Shown here: positions 1,684 through 18,568 of the stretch, piece after piece
Layout of the letters: every line of letters begins with the position of its first letter
How positions within the stretch are numbered: position 1 is the first letter of the stretch
Assembly (NCBI GenBank): GCA_964473145.1
Contig: CAYYNW010000011.1
Span: 1 to 22,431, forward strand
Source: an uncultured Halobacteria archaeon
Lineage (GTDB): Archaea > Halobacteriota > Syntropharchaeia > Alkanophagales > Methanospirareceae
Reading direction: 5' to 3'
Length of the DNA: 22,431 nucleotides
Notes under the pieces: generated by a model
Database searches by the model: none
Seen by the model: only the letters and a program-made list of their open reading frames with translations
Told to the model about the DNA's origin: nothing
Translations under genes and position numbers: made by a program

Positions 1684-3030
1684 GTGATCACGTTACGCTA
1701 CGAGAAAGGGACGCTCGCCGTTACGAGCAATTTCAAGCTGCCGCACACCGTATGGGATACGCGCTCGGGCGTTTACCGCTGCTTACCCCTCTTCTATCGA
1801 GAATTAACCGACTATTTGCAGCTCTCCCGGCTCGACTACGAAGACGACGTGCTTGATCTCCCACCGATGCCGCAGTTAACCGAAGCACTCAAGCTGCGTG
1901 ATTATCAAACCGAGGCGCTGCAGCGCTGGCTGCGCACGAACCAGGGCGTCCTGGTGCTGCCGACCGGCGCGGGAAAGACGATCATTGCGATAAAGGCAAT
2001 CGCAACGCTGAACGTCCCCACGCTGGTCGTCGTGCCAACCCTGGAGCTCGTGAAGCAGTGGCAGCGTGAGCTCGAAGCACGGTTAAACATAGAACCAGGC
2101 ACATACAGCGGCGAATCCCATATTCTGAAGCCGATAACCGTAGCAACCTACGATACCGCGTATCTGCGCGCCGAAGAGCTCGGGAACAAGTTCCTGCTCC
2201 TCGTCTTCGATGAGGTACACCATCTGCCCTCGCCCGGCTATTCCACTATCGCGGAGCTCTTCGTCGCCCCGTACCGGCTGGGCTTGACGGCCACGTACGA
2301 ACGCGAGGACGGCCGGCACACGGACCTGGAGCGGCTGGTCGGTGGTAAGATTTACGAGATAGGCGTTGAGAAACTAACCGGAAAGCACCTGGCGGAATAC
2401 ACGACACGGAAGATCGTTACTGACCTGACGGATGAGGAACGGGCGGAGTATGAGAAGCATTATGTGGTCTTCACCGATTTCCTCAAGACGAAACGGATCA
2501 TCCTGCGAACTCCACGGGACTTCCAACGGTTCGTCATGCGCACCGGGCGCGATCCGAAGGCGCGTGAAGCGCTGCTGGCACGGAATCGGGCGCGACAGAT
2601 CGCATTGAATTCACGCACCAAGTTGGATGCGCTCGCTAAGATTCTGACGGAGCATCCCGGTGACCGCACGATCATCTTCACCGAGCATAACTCGCTCGTC
2701 TACGCGATCTCCCGAGAGTTTTTGATACCCGCGATCACGCATACCACGCCGAAAGAGGAGCGGGCGGAGGTCCTCGAGAAGTTCCGGGCCGGGCAGTACC
2801 GGAGGATTGTCACCTCGAAGGTGCTGGAAGAGGGCATTGACGTGCCCGAGGCCTCGGTCGGGGTGATCCTGAGTGGCAGCGGGAGCAAACGCGAGTACAA
2901 GCAGCGGCTGGGCCGCATCTTGCGGAAGAAAGAGGGTAAACTGGCGATCCTCTATGAGATCGTCTCGAAAGGGACGACGGAGATCGGGATCTCGCGGAGG
3001 CGGAAGAGTACCGTGACTGATTCGTCTTAA
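1684..3030 (+). CDS. xpb: XPB (Rad25/ERCC3-type) SF2 DNA helicase
   Basis: 448-aa ORF with a GTG start. Walker A is VLPTGAGKT and motif II is FDEVHHL. GLTATYEREDGR contains the XPB-specific RED motif. C-terminal helicase motifs are VLEEGIDVPE and QRLGRILR. A Bax1 gene lies downstream. Confidence 0.9.
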   Translation: MITLRYEKGTLAVTSNFKLPHTVWDTRSGVYRCLPLFYRELTDYLQLSRLDYEDDVLDLPPMPQLTEALKLRDYQTEALQRWLRTNQGVLVLPTGAGKTIIAIKAIATLNVPTLVVVPTLELVKQWQRELEARLNIEPGTYSGESHILKPITVATYDTAYLRAEELGNKFLLLVFDEVHHLPSPGYSTIAELFVAPYRLGLTATYEREDGRHTDLERLVGGKIYEIGVEKLTGKHLAEYTTRKIVTDLTDEERAEYEKHYVVFTDFLKTKRIILRTPRDFQRFVMRTGRDPKAREALLARNRARQIALNSRTKLDALAKILTEHPGDRTIIFTEHNSLVYAISREFLIPAITHTTPKEERAEVLEKFRAGQYRRIVTSKVLEEGIDVPEASVGVILSGSGSKREYKQRLGRILRKKEGKLAILYEIVSKGTTEIGISRRRKSTVTDSS

Positions 3031-3033
3031 TCC

Positions 3034-3067
3034 GAAGCACGATTGACGTAAACTTTTAACGTGCTTC
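3034..3067 (+). terminator. Inverted repeat immediately after the xpb stop codon
   Basis: gaagcacg (3034-3041) and cgtgcttc (3060-3067) form a perfect 8-bp stem. The 18-nt loop contains cttttaa. Confidence 0.25.
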
Positions 3068-3084
3068 AGAACAAAGAAGAAATC

Positions 3085-3357
3085 ATGGAACTCATTTCGA
3101 TTCCCATTCTCATCAGCAAAGAAGGTACATGGTTTGTGGCATCGTGCCCGCTCCTTGACATAGGCACGCAGGGAAGGACCGAGGAAGAAGTGAAAGAGAA
3201 TATGGCGGATTTAATCGAAGAGTACCTAGAAGATCCCGACACAGCAAAACCTGACTTGGAGGCTATTTCGTCAACGTCAATCACTCTGACCTCCGTTCCC
3301 ATCAAGATACGAGGTGTTTATCGTGGCACTGGAACTTCGCCCGCTACCACAGCATGA
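3085..3357 (+). CDS. hicB: HicB-family (UPF0150) antitoxin-like protein
   Basis: MELISIPILISKEGTWFVASCPLLDIGTQGRTEEEVKENMADLIEEYLEDP matches the HicB N-terminal-domain pattern: beta strands, a G-x-T/S-x-E-E-A motif, then a helix ending in YLE. The ATG at 3085 is preferred over the GTG at 3061. The C-terminal tail looks atypical. Confidence 0.65.
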   Translation: MELISIPILISKEGTWFVASCPLLDIGTQGRTEEEVKENMADLIEEYLEDPDTAKPDLEAISSTSITLTSVPIKIRGVYRGTGTSPATTA

Positions 3358-3463
3358 GGTCATAAAAATCCTTGAAACGAACGGATTTAGCCGCGTCCGA
3401 TCACGAAAGCATATAGTATCTAAGAGGAGAGACACTGAAAAACAAACAATAAGGTATTTTTAA
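3323..3463 (+). pseudogene. hicA: HicA-like mRNA-interferase remnant, C-terminally truncated (46 codons)
   Basis: A small frame missing from the ORF track reads VALELRPLPQHEVIKILETNGFSRVRSRKHIVSKRRDTEKQTIRYF*. The EVIKILExxGF...R..(S)H(I)V pattern is HicA/YcfA-like. The roughly 25 C-terminal residues expected after the His region are absent. It overlaps the hicB 3' end by 35 nt. Confidence 0.4.
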
Positions 3464-3496
3464 AAAATGAGACACTATAAATAGGAGGTGATATGA

Positions 3497-4699
3497 ATGA
3501 GGTTCAGTGATGTCAAGCAATTATATTACATCACCCATGTCAGGAATGTCCCCTCCATACTGAAGCATGGCATCCTCTCTCATGAGCGTGTTGAAAGAGA
3601 GGGGTTAGAGTACCGTCCCATTTATGATGCCGAAATCGTTGGAAGGCGTAAAGAAATTCGGACACCTGATGGTAGAGATCTTTGGGATTTTGCCAATCTT
3701 TACTTCCAAGCCCGAAATGCGATGCTCTATCGCGTAGTGACCGAAAAGAGCGCTGATGAAATAGCGGTTCTCGCGGTCAACAGAGATATCCTTACCATAA
3801 AACGGCCGGATTTGTTTATCTCTACCGGTAATGCTGCAAGCGTAGGAAGTAATATCCTCCCTAAAAAAGAAGGGTTGGCCAATATTGACGCTAATGTCCT
3901 GACTATGGAATATTGGACGGTAGAGGATGGTTCAAAAAGAAAGATGATGGCTGAGTGTCTAGTTCCAGACAGCGTGCCATCTTCCTTAATTGAAACGATC
4001 TATGTAGCAAGTCACCGGGCTGCGGAGCAGGTGAAAGCGGAAGTACCCCAGACAAACATACCGATCATTCCTGAGCCGTATATGTTTTTCCAACCTTATA
4101 ATAAAATAGATCTCACTTCCAACCTTTCCCTTATCGAGGGAGATATGCTATTTTCTCGGCTGCATACACTTACCATAAGTGTGAACATTGTTGGCATCAT
4201 GGGGAAAGGACTTGCTTCGAGGGCGAAATATCAGTTTCCTGATGTTTATGTATTTTATCAAGACTTATGCCGAAAGAAAACCCTGCGAATGGGCAAGCCG
4301 TATCTTTATAAACGTGAATACGAATACTCATTCGATTATCAATTGGCAGACGACCCGTTAACCTTGTCCAATGCGAATTTGGAGACCTGGTTCCTCCTAT
4401 TTCCAACGAAACGCCACTGGCGCGAGCGGGGTGACATACATGGCATTGAGGAAGGATTGCAATGGCTTGTAGATAATTATAAAGGAGAAGGAATTAAATC
4501 ACTGGCGCTCCCAGCTCTTGGGTGTGGGCTTGGTTGGTTGGAGTGGCGTGAGGTAGGCCCGTTACTCTATAGATACCTTGCAACACTTGAGATCCCCGTT
4601 TGGATCTATTTACCCCGAGAGAGAAAGGTTCCTGACCAAGAACTTACAAAAGAGTTCTTAGAACGAGAAGGATTGGCTCGGTTCACTCGTGCCACGTGA
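3497..4699 (+). CDS. Fusion protein: N-terminal DarT-like (DUF4433) ADP-ribosyltransferase domain plus C-terminal DarG-like macrodomain
   Basis: Uninterrupted 400-aa ORF. A strong SD (ggaggtg, 3484-3490) lies 6 nt before the ATG. N-terminal landmarks: LYYITHVRNVPSILKHGILS, NLYFQARNAMLY, STGNAAS, KRKMMAECLVPD. C-terminal landmarks: NIVGIMGKGLA, LLFPTKRHWRE, LALPALGCGLGWLEW, VWIYLP. AT-richer than the flanks. Confidence 0.85.
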   Translation: MRFSDVKQLYYITHVRNVPSILKHGILSHERVEREGLEYRPIYDAEIVGRRKEIRTPDGRDLWDFANLYFQARNAMLYRVVTEKSADEIAVLAVNRDILTIKRPDLFISTGNAASVGSNILPKKEGLANIDANVLTMEYWTVEDGSKRKMMAECLVPDSVPSSLIETIYVASHRAAEQVKAEVPQTNIPIIPEPYMFFQPYNKIDLTSNLSLIEGDMLFSRLHTLTISVNIVGIMGKGLASRAKYQFPDVYVFYQDLCRKKTLRMGKPYLYKREYEYSFDYQLADDPLTLSNANLETWFLLFPTKRHWRERGDIHGIEEGLQWLVDNYKGEGIKSLALPALGCGLGWLEWREVGPLLYRYLATLEIPVWIYLPRERKVPDQELTKEFLEREGLARFTRAT

Positions 4700-4800
4700 A
4701 GAGAAGAAGATGGACGCCCAGGAAAGCAAATAAAGGGACCTCAAATGATCGGTGACGGCAAATTACGTGAGGCGCCTAGCACCCAGGTTAGGTAGGCACC

Positions 4801-6342
4801 ATGCTCCCCAGTGAACTCCTCATCACGCGGACGAAAAAGGACCGAATCCATCCGGATTTCCTGCAGGTGGATGCGGAGCAGCTGGAGCTGGCCGAGGAGC
4901 TCATCAGCGTGTACCAGCAGTTTGTGGGCACGAAGAAGGGCGAGCTCAACGATTTTATGGAAGAGTTCGAGCAGGGTCTGGAGTTCAAACGCATCCGCGG
5001 CTTGAGGACGCTGCTGGAGCGCCGGTGCACCTTCGTCTCGAAGCATGTAGTCGCGCCCGTAGAGGCACGGCGGGCGGTATTTCACGCGGCCAACGCTCAA
5101 AACGTGACGTCTCAAGCCGAGCGAATCGTGGTGATTACTGCTGTTGCGGGAGAACTGAACGTTTCCGCGAGTGATCTGGAGCAGTCGCTCTGGGCCGATC
5201 TGGACGCGGAAGTGTTCCTGGAGCAGTTTGAGCCGCTGAGGCCCGAGGAGTTGCTGCGGTGGTACAACCTCTCGTTAGCGCAGACGCTGCTCTTCAGGGC
5301 AACTGGTATGACCCTGACGATCATGGACCGTACGCCAGCGCTCTTCCGGGCGATCAAGTATTTCGGGCTGATGTATTTGCCCGAGGGCGGGCAGAAGATA
5401 CGGATCGAGGGCGCGCCGTCGTTACTCAAGCTGAGCGAGCGATACGGCACGGCGCTCGCCAAGCTGCTGCCCCTGATCGTCAGAAGTGGGAACTGGGCGC
5501 TCGACGCCGAGATCGTGGTTCGGAGGGAGAACACGCCGCGGATCTACCATTTTCTGCTGGACAGCCGCGATAAGCATGTGGTGACGAGCGACGAGGGAAA
5601 GGGGGAAGAGGTAACAACCACATTTGACAGCAGCGTCGAGCAGAAATTCTACACTGAGTTCGTCTCGTTACCGATCGCGCAGCGGTGGGAGCTTGTGCGC
5701 GAGCCGGATGTCATCGTAACGAAGGGGGGCGTGCTCATCCCGGACTTCAAATTCGTCCATAAAGAATTGAGCCTGGAGACGTATTTCGAGATCGTGGGCT
5801 TCTGGACCGAGGAATATCTCAAGCGGAAACTGGCGAAGATACGGGCATTGCCGTTCACGATGCTCGTGGCCATTGATAAAAGCTTAGCGTGCTTCAACTT
5901 CGAGCCCTTCGGGTTCGGGCTGGAGCAGCCGCTCATCCTCTACAGCAAGAAGGTGCCGGTTGGCGAGGTTGTCCAGTACTTAACGGCACTTGAACGAGAG
6001 GCAGTCACGAAGCAGGTGGCATCCCTGAAAGAGCAGGCAATAGAGCTTACAGGGGATATTATTCCGATTAAAGACCTGGCGAAGAGGTACGGGATGGGTC
6101 AGGATACCGTGCGAGCGAGCATGAAGGATCCGGAGTACGTGGTGTTCAAGGAGGTTTTCGTCAAGCAGAAGCTGCTGCGAAAAGTGAAGGAGAAGCTGGT
6201 GGCTGTCGAGAAGTACGTGGAGGCACGCAACATCATCGAGGAGGCAGGGCTAAGGAATGCGGATGAGGTGCTGGCGCACTTCGGATTCAGGGTGCAGTGG
6301 AAGGGGTTGGATCCAGGTGCGGCAACCATTACGCTTCAATAA
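4801..6342 (+). CDS. bax1: Bax1 (DUF790) nuclease, the partner of XPB
   Basis: 513-aa ORF. The N-terminus MLPSELLITRTKKDRIHPDFL is typical of Bax1. The nuclease region reads FDSSVEQKFYTEF...WELVREPDVIV...VLIPDFKF...YFEIVGFWTEEYLKRKL. It lies on the same strand as xpb. Confidence 0.9.
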   Translation: MLPSELLITRTKKDRIHPDFLQVDAEQLELAEELISVYQQFVGTKKGELNDFMEEFEQGLEFKRIRGLRTLLERRCTFVSKHVVAPVEARRAVFHAANAQNVTSQAERIVVITAVAGELNVSASDLEQSLWADLDAEVFLEQFEPLRPEELLRWYNLSLAQTLLFRATGMTLTIMDRTPALFRAIKYFGLMYLPEGGQKIRIEGAPSLLKLSERYGTALAKLLPLIVRSGNWALDAEIVVRRENTPRIYHFLLDSRDKHVVTSDEGKGEEVTTTFDSSVEQKFYTEFVSLPIAQRWELVREPDVIVTKGGVLIPDFKFVHKELSLETYFEIVGFWTEEYLKRKLAKIRALPFTMLVAIDKSLACFNFEPFGFGLEQPLILYSKKVPVGEVVQYLTALEREAVTKQVASLKEQAIELTGDIIPIKDLAKRYGMGQDTVRASMKDPEYVVFKEVFVKQKLLRKVKEKLVAVEKYVEARNIIEEAGLRNADEVLAHFGFRVQWKGLDPGAATITLQ

Positions 6343-6443: not shown

Positions 6444-6920
6444 TCAACCATTTACTGCCCCAAGCTTCCTATCAGTGATCTGCCTTATTATGGCAGTAGT
6501 CGACCCCCAGTCAATTTCAGATAATTTGTTTGTTTTTGGAATGTGTACCGTAAATTCTCTTTGATTTTCAGTATGATGATGCCTAACGTCTCTCAAAAAA
6601 ATCCAATACGCTTCGTTCTCTAACTCTACGTATTTTACGAGCATTACAACTGTCAAAAGACTACGAAGATAATTATATGTCGATATCTTTAATTGAATAG
6701 TTTCTTCGTTTTCATGCCCACTGCTATTTCGTGATGCTTTCAATTGGACAAGTAATTGCAATCCTTTTAGCTCTCCATTTTCCGCGATACCAATCTCGAA
6801 GTCTACGCCGTAATCATTTTGAGGCCGATTGACAGGCCAGCTTTGAGGTATATGATTACGTAAGAATGTTTCGGATTTCTGTTCAATGATATGCGTTTCA
6901 TGTCTGATTGGATATGGCAT
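6444..6920 (-). CDS. DUF4365 domain protein (restriction-endonuclease-like fold)
   Basis: 158-aa ORF. NDYGVDFEIGI...GELKGLQLLVQLKAS followed by ...VVMLVKYVELENEAYWIFL matches the DUF4365 pattern (DyGiD, a Q/E-x-K motif, then PvllV...ayW). An aggaag RBS-like motif lies about 9 nt upstream. Very AT-rich. Confidence 0.75.
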   Translation of the reverse strand: MPYPIRHETHIIEQKSETFLRNHIPQSWPVNRPQNDYGVDFEIGIAENGELKGLQLLVQLKASRNSSGHENEETIQLKISTYNYLRSLLTVVMLVKYVELENEAYWIFLRDVRHHHTENQREFTVHIPKTNKLSEIDWGSTTAIIRQITDRKLGAVNG

Positions 6921-7146
6921 CGTTAAGTCTTCCTAAAAGCATAACATTCACTTTTCCTCGCGGGTGCGGTATCTCCCTCCCTTCGGTCTCCGCGACTTCC
7001 AGCCACAGTTCGATAGCGATTTTAATCTCCCGTAACGCCGCCTCCTCTGTCTCGCCAAATGCCGAGCAGCCGGGTAACTCGGGCACCACCGCAATGTACC
7101 CTTCGTCCTCGTCACTATAGAAGATCTCGATCGCGTATTTAGACAT
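6898..7146 (-). CDS. hicB: HicB-family (UPF0150) antitoxin-like protein
   Basis: Taking the internal ATG at 7146 gives 82 aa: MSKYAIEIFYSDEDEGYIAVVPELPGCSAFGETEEAALREIKIAIELWLE. This is a textbook HicB N-terminal domain. The longer ORF extension (to 7284) is hydrophobic nonsense. The 3' end overlaps the DUF4365 start by 23 nt. Confidence 0.75.
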   Translation of the reverse strand: MSKYAIEIFYSDEDEGYIAVVPELPGCSAFGETEEAALREIKIAIELWLEVAETEGREIPHPRGKVNVMLLGRLNDAISNQT

Positions 7147-7206
7147 CGCTTTTCCCTCCACGTGAATGAAGAGCATAAAGGGATTTAAGAGTAAAAGAAG
7201 ATACGT

Positions 7207-7767
7207 ATGAGAAGGAAAGAAGTAAACATGGCAGAGCAAGTCGAGAGCGGCTTTCAGAGGGAGAAGTTTAAGCAGGTGCTCCATTACCTCATCTTCAAGT
7301 GCGGCTCGCTGGAGAACGTCGGGAAGACCGTGCTCTTCAAGCTCCTCTACTTCTCGGATTTCGATTACTACGAGCTCTACGAGGAGAAGTTAACCGATGA
7401 ATCGTATCGCAAGTTGGAGCACAGGCCCGCTCCGAGCCATTTTGACGACGCGGTGCGGGAACTCGAAGTCGAGGGCAAAATTGAAACGACGGTTGCGACA
7501 TTCGGAACGTTCGATCAGCAGAAATTTCTCCCCGTTAAAAAGCCATCGCTGGATCTGCTCACGGCAAATGAGCTCCAGGTCATCGAGAACGATATCGCGA
7601 AATACTGCAGCATGAACGCAAAACAGATAAGTGCATTTTCGCACAGAGACATACCATATAAAGCAACTGCTGAGGGCGATATTATCGACTACGAATTGGT
7701 ATTCTACAGAGACGTCCTGTTCTCTGTCCGAGAATACGAAGATGACCGAGTTCTTGCAGGTCGATGA
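7207..7767 (+). CDS. Panacea / DUF4065 (SocA-, GepA-like) antitoxin-domain protein
   Basis: FKQVLHYLIFKCGSLENVGKTVLFKLLYFSDFDYYELYEEKLTDESYRKLEHRPAP fits the DUF4065 pattern (KLlYf.D...g.plt...Y......GP.p). An alternative start is the ATG at 7228 (MAEQ...). It is divergent from the hicB/DUF4365 pair. Confidence 0.7.
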   Translation: MRRKEVNMAEQVESGFQREKFKQVLHYLIFKCGSLENVGKTVLFKLLYFSDFDYYELYEEKLTDESYRKLEHRPAPSHFDDAVRELEVEGKIETTVATFGTFDQQKFLPVKKPSLDLLTANELQVIENDIAKYCSMNAKQISAFSHRDIPYKATAEGDIIDYELVFYRDVLFSVREYEDDRVLAGR

Positions 7768-9579: not shown

Positions 9580-9586
9580 AAAGGAG

Positions 9587-9660
9587 TGCCGGGGGCGGGA
9601 TTCGGACCCGCGACCTCAGCATTATGAGTGCCGCGCCCTAACCAACTAGGCCACCCCGGC
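9587..9660 (-). tRNA. tRNA-Met (anticodon CAT), elongator-like
   Basis: The reverse complement folds as a 74-nt cloverleaf: GCCGGGG-TG-GCCT-AGTTGGTTA-GGGC-G-CGGCA-CTCATAA-TGCTG-AGGTC-GCGGG-TCCGAAT-CCCGC-CCCCGGC-A. A CAT anticodon could also belong to tRNA-Ile2, but the acceptor stem looks Met-like. No CCA is encoded. Confidence 0.9.
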
Positions 9661-18495: not shown

Positions 18496-18568
18496 GCCCT
18501 GGTAGCATAGTCGGCAATGCGCCACCTTGGTAAGGTGGAGATCGCGGGTCCAAATCCCGCCCAGGGCT
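18496..18568 (+). tRNA. tRNA-Thr (anticodon GGT)
   Basis: 73-nt cloverleaf: GCCCTGG-TA-GCAT-AGTCGGCA-ATGC-G-CCACC-TTGGTAA-GGTGG-AGATC-GCGGG-TCCAAAT-CCCGC-CCAGGGC-T. All stems are Watson-Crick paired. Confidence 0.92.

What the first reader, a model, noticed from the sequence alone, without database searches (positions are those of the whole stretch)
3497..4699. DarT toxin and DarG-type macrodomain antitoxin fused in one polypeptide
One uninterrupted 400-aa ORF joins two activities that are separate proteins in characterised DarTG toxin-antitoxin/anti-phage systems.

Residues 1 to about 195 carry the DarT (DUF4433) landmarks, with the catalytic contexts apparently intact:
- YYITH
- LYFQARNAMLY
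- STGNAAS
- MMAECLV (compare the Thermus DarT Glu context QAEFLV)

Residues about 205-390 carry a DarG-like macrodomain:
- NIVGIMGKGLA
- FPTKRHW, which retains the Lys that is catalytic in DarG (FPTKKHW)
- ALPALGCGLGW

Domain order is toxin then antitoxin, and the C-terminal DarT-binding domain of DarG is absent. A DNA ADP-ribosyl writer covalently tethered to its eraser implies a different control logic. Possibilities are cis-autoinhibition released by proteolysis or a trigger, or a reversible DNA-marking enzyme. I cannot tell from here whether this architecture has been catalogued or studied.
Basis: partly seen in the sequence, partly recalled or inferred. Interest (0 to 1): 0.85.

Follow-up and report, generated by a model that had tools for sequence, protein, structure and literature searches.

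The report
Known single-chain DarTG in an archaeon
The gene really does encode a DNA ADP-ribosylating toxin fused to its own eraser enzyme, but this single-chain form is an already known, widespread family with a crystal structure released in 2021; here it is a recently acquired copy in an archaeal genome.

Summary
Window 3497-4699 (+) is one intact 400-aa ORF. It has an N-terminal DarT domain (Pfam E=3e-47) and a C-terminal DarG-type macrodomain (PADLOC DarG E=1e-42). It lacks the C-terminal DarT-binding domain of DarG. The catalytic residues are in place: R51, E153 and K305.

The architecture is not new. The protein matches PDB 7OMU, 'Thermosipho africanus DarTG in complex with ADP-ribose' (released 2021-06-23), end to end:
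- Sequence: E=3.7e-141, 57% identity.
- Structure: the AlphaFold model superposes as a whole, TM 0.85/0.90.

Relatives occur in at least 229 species-level genomes. In 77 of the best 80 loci, spread over many bacterial phyla and several archaeal groups, there is an intact fused ORF. These loci share no conserved partner gene.

What is new here is local. Close relatives of this archaeon show three states at this site: XPB and Bax1 abutting, XPB-hicB-hicA-Bax1, or this arrangement. In the window a 1.38-kb, low-GC single-gene darTG cassette (3416-4799) replaced the 3' half of hicA.

The most likely function is a self-contained toxin-antitoxin or defence module of the DarTG2 type. The trigger is unknown.

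Verdict: new member of a known kind, low to moderate interest.

The parts
3497..4699 (+). darTG: single 400-aa ORF encoding DarT fused to a DarG-type macrodomain (end includes the stop codon)
   Evidence: full-length match to PDB 7OMU, E=3.7e-141; Foldseek TM 0.85/0.90
3497..4081 (+). DarT (ssDNA ADP-ribosyltransferase) domain, residues 1-195
   Evidence: Pfam PF14487 residues 10-193, E=3e-47. Structural matches to Thermus DarT 7OMY/7OMV (TMt 0.78-0.79) are better than to E. coli DarT1 8BAQ (TMt 0.62).
3647..3649 (+). Codon of R51, aligned with Thermus DarT R51
   Evidence: HMMER alignment to 7OMV; conserved in at least 90% of 106 fused homologues
3953..3955 (+). Codon of E153, the catalytic glutamate of DarT (MMAECLV)
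   Evidence: Aligns with the Ala that replaces the Glu in crystal constructs 7OMU and 7OMV. The native Thermosipho genome sequence has Glu here. Invariant in 106 homologues.
4061..4096 (+). Inter-domain linker, residues 189-200 (P-x-x-P-E-P-x-M-F-F-Q-P), nearly invariant
   Evidence: Column counts in alignment A1; mean pLDDT 92-96 across the 10-residue blocks of residues 181-230
4124..4642 (+). DarG-type (TARG1/ALC1-like) macrodomain, residues 210-382
   Evidence: PADLOC DarG E=1e-42; 5M31 E=5e-22; 5M3E TMt 0.91
4409..4411 (+). Codon of K305, equivalent to the catalytic K80 of T. aquaticus DarG (FPTKRHW)
   Evidence: Alignment to 5M31 and 5M3I; invariant in 106 homologues
4313..4384 (+). Acidic, highly conserved insertion in the macrodomain (residues 273-296), present in fused proteins and absent from stand-alone DarG
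   Evidence: Gaps against 5M31 and 5M3I but present in 7OMU. E276 and P287 are invariant; L283, A284 and D285 are nearly so. Mean net charge -4.3.
3416..4799 (+). Inserted cassette carrying darTG with its own upstream region; GC 0.449 against 0.564 for the window
   Evidence: Homology to empty-site relative L092 (97% DNA identity) stops at 3415 and resumes at 4800. GC and GC3 values.
3323..3463 (+). Truncated hicA toxin remnant (46 codons; only the first 31 are homologous to the intact 74-aa HicA of relatives)
   Evidence: Translations of the window against L092, L090, L102 and L107
3061..3357 (+). hicB-like small ORF, now without an intact toxin partner; not part of the DarTG module
   Evidence: Conserved next to an intact hicA in relatives. 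No profile hit in Pfam or NCBIfam. The HicB assignment rests on its position and on my reading of the sequence.
1684..3030 (+). XPB helicase: host gene upstream of the insertion site
   Evidence: Pfam XPB_DRD, ResIII, Helicase_C and ERCC3_RAD25_C
4801..6342 (+). Bax1 nuclease (DUF790): host gene downstream of the insertion site
   Evidence: Pfam DUF790 E=4.8e-113. NCBIfam endonuclease Bax1 is the best hit, E=1.3e-94, but scores below the equivalog cut-off.

Best explanation
This is a genuine single-chain DarTG of the Thermosipho africanus type. An N-terminal DarT2-like ADP-ribosyltransferase is expected to ADP-ribosylate thymidine in single-stranded DNA using NAD+. It is joined by a short, rigid, conserved linker to a DarG-type macrodomain, which is expected to hydrolyse that same ADP-ribosyl-thymidine mark. 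The gene entered an archaeal genome (the closest named genome is a 'Halobacteria archaeon' MAG) by horizontal transfer. It arrived as a 1.38-kb single-gene cassette in a hicBA locus between XPB and Bax1 and destroyed hicA.

It most likely works as a self-contained toxin-antitoxin or anti-virus module. In the resting cell the in-cis eraser keeps net DNA modification low; this is enzymatic, type-IV-like neutralisation, because the DarT-binding C-terminal domain of DarG is missing. Toxicity or defence appears when the writer outruns the eraser. That could happen through abundant viral ssDNA, or through a trigger that disables or re-orients the macrodomain.

Shown here:
- domain identities
- conserved catalytic residues in both halves
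- integrity of the fusion
- homology to a solved fused protein
- mobility as a single gene with no conserved partner

Inferred: enzymatic activity, thymidine specificity, a defence or TA role, and the nature of the trigger.
For: Domain matches.

Homology to a solved fused protein:
- Full-length sequence match to PDB 7OMU, E=3.7e-141 over residues 3-388.
- AF2 model with pLDDT 89.9 and pTM 0.87.
- The model superposes on 7OMU, 'Thermosipho africanus DarTG in complex with ADP-ribose', with TM 0.85/0.90 and rmsd 2.5 A over 385 columns.

Both active sites are conserved. In 106 fused homologues of 60-90% identity, H14, E153, G236-K237-G238, K305 and P339-G346 are invariant, and R51 is conserved in at least 90%.

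The DarT half resembles thymidine-specific DarT2 (7OMY, TMt 0.79) more than guanine-specific DarT1 (8BAQ, TMt 0.62).

Distribution:
- 229 genome stretches encode relatives.
- 77 of the best 80 loci have an intact single ORF.
- No neighbour family is shared by more than 5-6 of those loci.

Single-gene acquisition:
- Relatives carry XPB|Bax1, or XPB-hicB-hicA-Bax1, without darTG.
- The breakpoints lie at 3415 and 4800.
- hicA is truncated.
- GC3 is 0.45, against 0.75-0.77 in the flanking genes.
Against: No biochemical or genetic data exist for this protein. None for the fused family could be read here, because the paper I recall as describing 7OMU (Schuller et al. 2021, Nature 596:597; attribution from memory) is not held.

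NCBIfam equivalog cut-offs for DarT (111 bits against 150) and DarG (135 against 250) are not reached. The fused clade is therefore divergent from characterised DarTG2, and its base or sequence specificity could differ.

A permanently tethered eraser makes it unclear how net toxicity ever arises. No trigger or sensor element was identified.

The surroundings of the 80 loci are largely housekeeping genes rather than defence islands.
Confidence: 0.8

Rival explanations
1. The fusion is an artefact. A missed stop or frameshift in the assembly merged an ordinary two-gene darT-darG pair.
For: [quoted passage not shown] Plasmid homologues at under 30% identity are annotated as two genes.
Against: The identical 400-aa protein was looked up on 15 contigs, and the 8 shown come from separate ENA, JGI and Logan samples. 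77 of 80 related genomes have one ORF. The native Thermosipho sequence is fused, and a fused protein was crystallised as one chain. The linker is nearly invariant.
Confidence: 0.01
2. It is a domesticated reversible DNA-marking enzyme working with the archaeal XPB-Bax1 repair pair. In this view DarT marks ssDNA or lesions, the macrodomain resets the mark, and XPB-Bax1 processes the marked DNA.
For: The gene sits co-directionally between XPB and Bax1, both here and in a second species-level genome, L009 (XPB 80%, Bax1 69%, DarTG 86% identity). In E. coli, ADPr-thymidine lesions are handled by nucleotide excision repair (title and abstract of PMC7003065, listed). A few other fused loci lie next to photolyase-like or MrfA-type helicase genes.
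Against: Close relatives lack darTG at this very site: L092 has 97% DNA identity in the flank and L090 has 93% XPB protein identity. More distant relatives have XPB and Bax1 directly abutting. GC3 of 0.45 against 0.75-0.77 marks the gene as foreign. None of the other 79 genome loci has XPB or Bax1 nearby. The site had already received another TA pair, hicBA, which fits a permissive insertion hot spot.
Confidence: 0.06
3. One half is catalytically dead. The protein would be either an orphan toxin with a regulatory ADP-ribose-binding macrodomain, or a stand-alone eraser (for example, immunity against foreign DarT) carrying a vestigial DarT.
For: The Pfam Macro score is barely above threshold (22.5 against 22). 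NCBIfam equivalog cut-offs are not met. 7OMU has ADP-ribose bound, which is compatible with either binding or hydrolysis.
Against: Catalytic and ligand-binding residues of both halves are invariant across 106 homologues: E153 and H14, with R51 in at least 90%; K305, the GKG loop and the PALGCGLG loop. The PADLOC DarG profile matches at E=1e-42. The macrodomain superposes on T. aquaticus DarG with TMt 0.91.
Confidence: 0.08
4. The gene gives two products. Internal translation initiation near the domain boundary would supply free macrodomain antitoxin in excess over the full-length protein, restoring classical TA stoichiometry.
For: In the window, GAGGGAG precedes the in-frame ATG of M217 by two bases (4138-4148). 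A Met is common at position 196.
Against: Across homologues the Glu codon before that Met is GAA in 39 of 46, so no SD-like GAGG is kept. An SD-like motif precedes the linker Met in only 4 of 44. A product starting at M217 would lack the first beta-strand of the macrodomain.
Confidence: 0.04

Closest known systems
Thermosipho africanus DarTG (PDB 7OMU, released 2021-06-23)
   Same: Same single-chain architecture, DarT then DarG-type macrodomain with no DarG C-terminal domain. 57% identity over residues 3-388, with the same predicted fold and domain arrangement (TM 0.85/0.90). It also has the same conserved linker and the same acidic macrodomain insertion.
   Different: The host is an archaeon rather than a Thermotogota bacterium. 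This copy has a 12-residue longer C-terminal tail. Here the gene is a recent insertion into a hicBA locus between XPB and Bax1. The crystal construct carries Ala in place of the catalytic Glu.
Canonical two-gene DarTG2 (Thermus, M. tuberculosis, EPEC; PDB 7OMV-7ON0, 5M31, 5M3I, 7YK3)
   Same: Homologous DarT fold with the catalytic Arg and Glu. Homologous TARG1-like macrodomain with the catalytic Lys. By homology, the chemistry is expected to be reversible ADP-ribosylation of thymidine in ssDNA.
   Different: One polypeptide instead of two genes. It lacks the DarG C-terminal domain, which per Deep et al. 2023 (title cited) inhibits DarT by ssDNA mimicry. Identity is only 23-25% to Thermus DarT (20-22% to M. 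tuberculosis DarT) and 27-34% to DarG macrodomains. It scores below the NCBIfam equivalog cut-offs.
DarTG1 (DarT1 with a NADAR antitoxin)
   Same: The toxin belongs to the DarT superfamily (8BAQ matched at E=5.7e-10).
   Different: The antitoxin domain here is a macrodomain, not a NADAR. The structural match to DarT1 is clearly poorer (TMt 0.62, rmsd 5.4 A). DarT1 modifies guanine.
Fused toxin-antitoxin defence proteins such as CapRel(SJ46)
   Same: Toxin and antitoxin lie in one chain, which shows that a fused TA can be a working phage-defence switch. [quoted passage not shown] That this refers to CapRel is from my own knowledge.
   Different: It is an unrelated fold and chemistry, and its antitoxin is a non-enzymatic occluding domain. 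This is an analogy only. No trigger is known for fused DarTG.

Membership tests
Single-chain DarTG (T. africanus / PDB 7OMU type) | One polypeptide with N-terminal DarT and C-terminal DarG-type macrodomain | tested here: met
   a single ORF, also in 77 of 80 relatives
Single-chain DarTG (T. africanus / PDB 7OMU type) | End-to-end sequence homology to the solved member | tested here: met
   phmmer E=3.7e-141, residues 3-388 against 20-403 of 7OMU; 57% identity
Single-chain DarTG (T. africanus / PDB 7OMU type) | Same fold and same relative arrangement of the two domains | tested here: met
   AF2 model (pLDDT 89.9) against 7OMU: TMq 0.85, TMt 0.90, rmsd 2.5 A over 385 columns. This compares a prediction with a crystal structure, not two experimental structures.
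Single-chain DarTG (T. africanus / PDB 7OMU type) | Intact catalytic residues in both halves (DarT Arg and Glu; macrodomain Lys and phosphate-binding loops) | tested here: met
   R51, E153, K305, GKG 236-238 and PALGCGLG 339-346
Single-chain DarTG (T. africanus / PDB 7OMU type) | ssDNA ADP-ribosylation and its reversal by the same protein | not testable with these tools
   Needs biochemistry
Canonical DarTG2 toxin-antitoxin system | Toxin and antitoxin encoded as two separate adjacent genes | tested here: not met
   Single ORF
Canonical DarTG2 toxin-antitoxin system | DarG C-terminal domain that binds and inhibits DarT | tested here: not met
   DarG profiles are matched only at positions 4-154 of 329 (PADLOC) and 3-157 of 338 (NCBIfam). 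The protein ends 18 residues after the macrodomain match.
Canonical DarTG2 toxin-antitoxin system | Scores above the NCBIfam equivalog cut-offs for toxin_DarT and antitoxin_DarG | tested here: not met
   111.4 bits against a cut-off of 150; 135.3 against 250
Canonical DarTG2 toxin-antitoxin system | DarT toxic when expressed alone and neutralised by the macrodomain; anti-phage activity | not testable with these tools
   Needs expression and infection experiments
DarTG1 (NADAR antitoxin) | NADAR-domain antitoxin partnered with DarT1 | tested here: not met
   No NADAR match in the ORF or in the neighbouring genes. DarT1 is the poorer structural match.

The most novel reading that the evidence does not exclude
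The fused family may neutralise its toxin by more than in-cis erasure. The conserved acidic insertion in the macrodomain (residues 273-296) is absent from stand-alone DarG. It could occupy the DarT ssDNA groove as a built-in DNA mimic, replacing the missing DarG C-terminal domain. A viral trigger or ssDNA competition would then release it, as in a CapRel-like single-chain switch. In this archaeal lineage, placement inside the XPB-Bax1 unit could additionally couple the resulting ADPr-DNA lesions to the host's excision machinery.
Probability: 0.12. Interest if true: 0.6.

Novelty: new member of a known kind. Interest (0 to 1): 0.27.

Why it matters
For the scan, this finding should be downgraded. 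A writer-eraser fusion that looks striking from sequence alone is a catalogued family, structurally solved in 2021.

Some value remains.
- It documents that single-chain DarTG is widespread: relatives in at least 229 species-level genomes, and a fused gene in the best 80 loci across many bacterial phyla and several archaeal groups. It travels as an autonomous one-gene cassette without any conserved partner.
- That makes it the minimal natural system for asking how a toxin permanently tethered to its antidote is ever switched on.
- No paper in the searchable library addresses that question. At least one review still describes DarG as strictly two-component.
- The three-state XPB/Bax1 junction gives a clean natural before-and-after comparison of the insertion.

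Tried and rejected
- **Conserved partner gene (separate antitoxin, sensor or regulator).** I clustered ORFs within 5 kb in 80 loci and scanned 131 immediate neighbours against Pfam. Nothing was shared beyond 4-6 loci, and those are probably related genomes.
- **Functional XPB-Bax1 linkage.** Rejected as the main reading. Close relatives lack the gene at the same site, and no other fused locus has XPB or Bax1 nearby.
- **Internal translation start giving free macrodomain.** No conserved SD-like signal.
- **Flanking direct or inverted repeats, or a tRNA at the cassette ends.** None were found. The only tRNAs lie at 9586-9660 and 18496-18568.
- **Carriage on known plasmids or phages.** Only distant homologues at no more than 31% identity, mostly annotated as two genes, plus phage DarG-like macrodomains.
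- **Sigma-70 promoter and terminator scan.** Uninformative for an archaeal host.
- **Literature on the fusion.** Six full-text searches and ten papers read gave no description of a natural DarT-macro fusion. The paper I recall as describing 7OMU is not held.
- **HicB assignment of ORF 3061-3357.** Pfam and NCBIfam gave no hit. The assignment rests on its pairing with an intact HicA-like ORF in relatives.
Full report
**1. Observation**

Window 3497-4699 (+) is a single 400-aa ORF with no internal stop. A GGAGGT motif lies 7 nt upstream of the ATG.

Profile searches confirm two domains.
- Pfam DarT (PF14487): residues 10-193, E=3e-47. Pfam Macro: a marginal hit at residues 303-353.
- PADLOC DarT: residues 7-198, E=2.6e-40. 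PADLOC DarG: residues 212-382, E=1e-42.
- The DarG profiles are matched only over their first ~155 positions (4-154 of 329; 3-157 of 338). The C-terminal DarT-binding half of DarG is therefore absent.
- NCBIfam equivalog cut-offs are not reached: 111 against 150 bits for DarT, and 135 against 250 for DarG. The protein is a divergent relative of the characterised two-gene system.

**2. Is the fusion real?**

Yes.
- The identical protein was looked up on 15 contigs, and the 8 shown come from separate ENA, JGI and Logan samples.
- A database search returned more than 120 clusters of 59-90% identity, ~390 aa long and covering the full query. Most carry PF14487 plus PF01661.
- A scan of one genome per species found 229 stretches encoding relatives.
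- In 77 of the best 80 loci, one uninterrupted ORF spans both domains. Two are interrupted (L052, L065) and one is cut by a contig end.

**3. It is already known**

Comparison with PDB sequences gave a full-length hit to 7OMU chain A (406 aa), E=3.7e-141, query residues 3-388.

An AlphaFold2 model built on 106 homologues has pLDDT 89.9 and pTM 0.87. Searched against the PDB, it returns 7OMU, 'Thermosipho africanus DarTG in complex with ADP-ribose', released 2021-06-23, as the top hit over the whole chain. The scores are TMq 0.85, TMt 0.90, rmsd 2.5 A and 57% identity. Next come:
- the T. aquaticus DarG macrodomain (5M3E, TMt 0.91)
- Thermus DarT (7OMY and 7OMV, TMt 0.78-0.79)
- M. tuberculosis DarTG (7YK3)
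- only then E. coli DarT1 (8BAQ, TMt 0.62)

A Thermosipho MAG in the genome scan (L064) encodes the native fused protein. It reads KIMAECLVP where the crystal chain reads KIMAACLVP. The crystallised construct is thus a catalytic Glu-to-Ala mutant of a naturally fused gene.

From memory, 7OMU belongs to Schuller et al. 2021 (Nature 596:597). That paper is not in the held library, so I could not read what it says about the fusion.

None of the held papers I searched or read describes a natural DarT-macro fusion. [quoted passage not shown]

**4. Catalytic residues**

From the HMMER alignments:
- Query E153 (MMAECLV) aligns with the Ala that replaces E160 in the Thermus DarT crystal chain (KKQAAFLV).
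- Query R51 aligns with Thermus R51.
- Query K305 (FPTKRHW) aligns with K80 of T. aquaticus DarG (FPTKKHW).

In alignment A1 (106 fused homologues, 60-90% identical to the query), the following are invariant: H14, N74, M76, G111-N112-A113, R148, E153, G236-K237-G238, T304-K305 and P339-G346. R51 is conserved in at least 90%. Both active sites are therefore under purifying selection across the family. This argues against a dead domain.

**5. Family-specific features**

*The linker.* Residues 189-200 (P-x-x-P-E-P-x-M-F-F-Q-P) are nearly invariant. They are modelled as ordered short strands and a helix, with mean pLDDT 92-96 across the blocks of residues 181-230.

*The macrodomain insertion.* The macrodomain carries an insertion at residues 273-296. 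It is present in 7OMU but absent from the stand-alone DarG macrodomains 5M31 and 5M3I.
- It is highly conserved: E276 and P287 are invariant, and L283, A284 and D285 are nearly so.
- It is acidic: mean net charge -4.3, range -6 to -2.
- Its role could not be tested here because no coordinates are available.
- I record as a hypothesis that it substitutes for the missing DarG C-terminal ssDNA-mimic domain.

**6. Genomic context across the family**

I clustered ORFs within 5 kb of the gene in 80 genome loci and found no neighbour shared by more than 5 loci. A Pfam scan of 131 immediate neighbours gave 160 different families. The most frequent were radical SAM (6), amidohydrolase (5) and photolyase-like (4), most probably from related genomes. 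The fused gene is thus a stand-alone module.

The 80 best loci span many groups:
- Bacteria: Chloroflexota, Ignavibacteria, Acidobacteriota, Planctomycetota, Aquificaceae, Thermosipho, Atribacteria, Omnitrophota and others.
- Archaea: Bathyarchaeia, Nitrosopumilus and a 'Halobacteria archaeon'.

In a library clustered at 50% identity there are 106 hits at E<=1e-30. Roughly two dozen of these are full-length fused proteins.

Known plasmids and phages carry only distant homologues (no more than 31% identity), mostly annotated as two genes. Many phages encode DarG-like macrodomains alone.

**7. Local history in this genome**

The host is archaeal. The evidence is an XPB helicase, a Bax1 nuclease, Trm1, FolE2-type GTP cyclohydrolase, [NiFe] hydrogenase with HycI, and a closest named genome that is a 'Halobacteria archaeon' MAG (L009).

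darTG lies between XPB (1684-3030) and Bax1 (4801-6342), all on the + strand. A metagenome scan with Bax1 gave 30 related loci that show three states at this junction.
- (a) XPB and Bax1 directly abutting: L093, L096, L101 and L103-L105.
- (b) XPB-hicB-hicA-Bax1 with an intact 74-aa HicA-like ORF: L090, L092 and L102 (translated). L107 has the same layout, but its hicA carries an internal stop. By tblastn layout only, L091, L099, L109, L116 and L117 look the same.
- (c) XPB-hicB-[hicA remnant]-darTG-Bax1: the window, L089, L118 and the species-level genome L009.

L092 is 97% identical in DNA to the window up to position 3415 and again from 4800. Between those points, 142 nt of L092 are replaced by 1384 nt in the window. 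In the window, hicA is cut after codon 31 (…SRKHI) and reads on into the insert for 15 codons.

The insert has GC 0.449. darTG has GC3 of 0.45, against 0.75 for XPB and 0.77 for Bax1. No flanking repeats or adjacent tRNA were found.

darTG therefore arrived recently, by horizontal transfer, as a single-gene cassette into a spot that had already accepted another TA pair. Its best relatives outside the lineage are about 70% identical. Named relatives at 63-68% identity come from Dehalococcoidia and candidate division NPL-UPA2.

The XPB-Bax1 position is intriguing, because ADPr-thymidine is repaired by NER in E. coli (PMC7003065). However, the presence/absence polymorphism, and the absence of XPB or Bax1 from the other 79 loci, make a functional link unlikely.

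**8. Mechanism**

*Shown:* a DarT2-like transferase domain and a DarG-like glycohydrolase domain, both with conserved catalytic residues. They are rigidly joined, autonomous and mobile.

*Inferred from homology to DarTG2*: NAD+-dependent ADP-ribosylation of thymidine in ssDNA, blocking replication, with reversal by the macrodomain.

*My best guess* (about 0.6, given that the identity is right): the protein is a self-contained TA/defence module. In-cis erasure keeps the resting cell safe, and the balance tips during infection. No trigger is identified.

A fused TA that is switched by direct binding of a phage protein is an accepted precedent. Internal initiation to make free antitoxin was tested and not supported.

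**9. Verdict**

This is a new (archaeal, recently inserted) member of a known kind. Interest is low to moderate. The open question is how single-chain DarTG is controlled.

Noticed in passing
window 3323-3463 (+), with 3061-3357 (+): A hicA toxin gene is truncated after codon 31 by the darTG cassette. This leaves an apparently intact hicB-like ORF without a partner. Relatives L092, L090 and L102 keep a full 74-aa HicA-like ORF at the same place; in L107 that ORF carries an internal stop.
   Followed up: yes
window 3030-4801; loci L089-L118: The XPB|Bax1 junction is an insertion hot spot with three states among related archaea: the genes abutting, hicBA inserted, or hicB plus darTG. The ancestral pair is separated by only one or two bases, so the insertions probably uncoupled Bax1 from XPB translation.
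   Followed up: partly
window 6444-7767: A second low-GC islet (GC about 0.45) holds a DUF4365 nuclease-like gene (-), a HicB-like antitoxin (-) and a SocA/Panacea-domain gene (+). Its content varies among relatives; for example L092 lacks the DUF4365 gene, and L089 and L091 show no SocA match.
   Followed up: partly
L069 677-1291 and L086 7196-7891: In two genomes a separate DarT-like ORF sits directly upstream of the fused darTG on the same strand. In L069 it scores Pfam DarT E=2.5e-31 and is 27% identical to the fused DarT half. In L086 it is a weak, partial match. This may be a second toxin relying on the fused eraser.
   Followed up: no
L052 7935-9161; L065 7980-9167: The fused gene is interrupted into two ORFs in these two genomes. 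They may be pseudogenes or assembly errors.
   Followed up: no
phage records, e.g. phiEco32 EU330206.1 34800-35252 and Klebsiella phage Eowyn 4281-4706; MT837167.1 837-1916: Many phages encode stand-alone DarG-like macrodomains 35-40% identical to the macro half, which are probably anti-DarT factors. One unannotated 'Bacteriophage sp.' contig gives a single-piece hit covering 94% of the fused protein at 30% identity, so it may carry a fused gene.
   Followed up: no
window 4313-4384 (residues 273-296): A conserved acidic insertion in the macrodomain is specific to the fused family and absent from stand-alone DarG. Its function is unknown, and it may act as a DNA mimic or an inter-domain contact.
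   Followed up: partly
L104 8435-8665; L105 4561-4791: A partial second copy of the Bax1 C-terminus (about 60% identity to residues 436-512) lies about 900 nt downstream of Bax1 in two related contigs.
   Followed up: no
L001 3320-4519 and equivalents (upstream of the window's left end): An Mrr-type restriction nuclease gene (Mrr_cat plus NA-iREase1) lies about 5.5 kb upstream of darTG in the same organism. The neighbourhood therefore holds several defence or TA genes interspersed with housekeeping genes.
   Followed up: no
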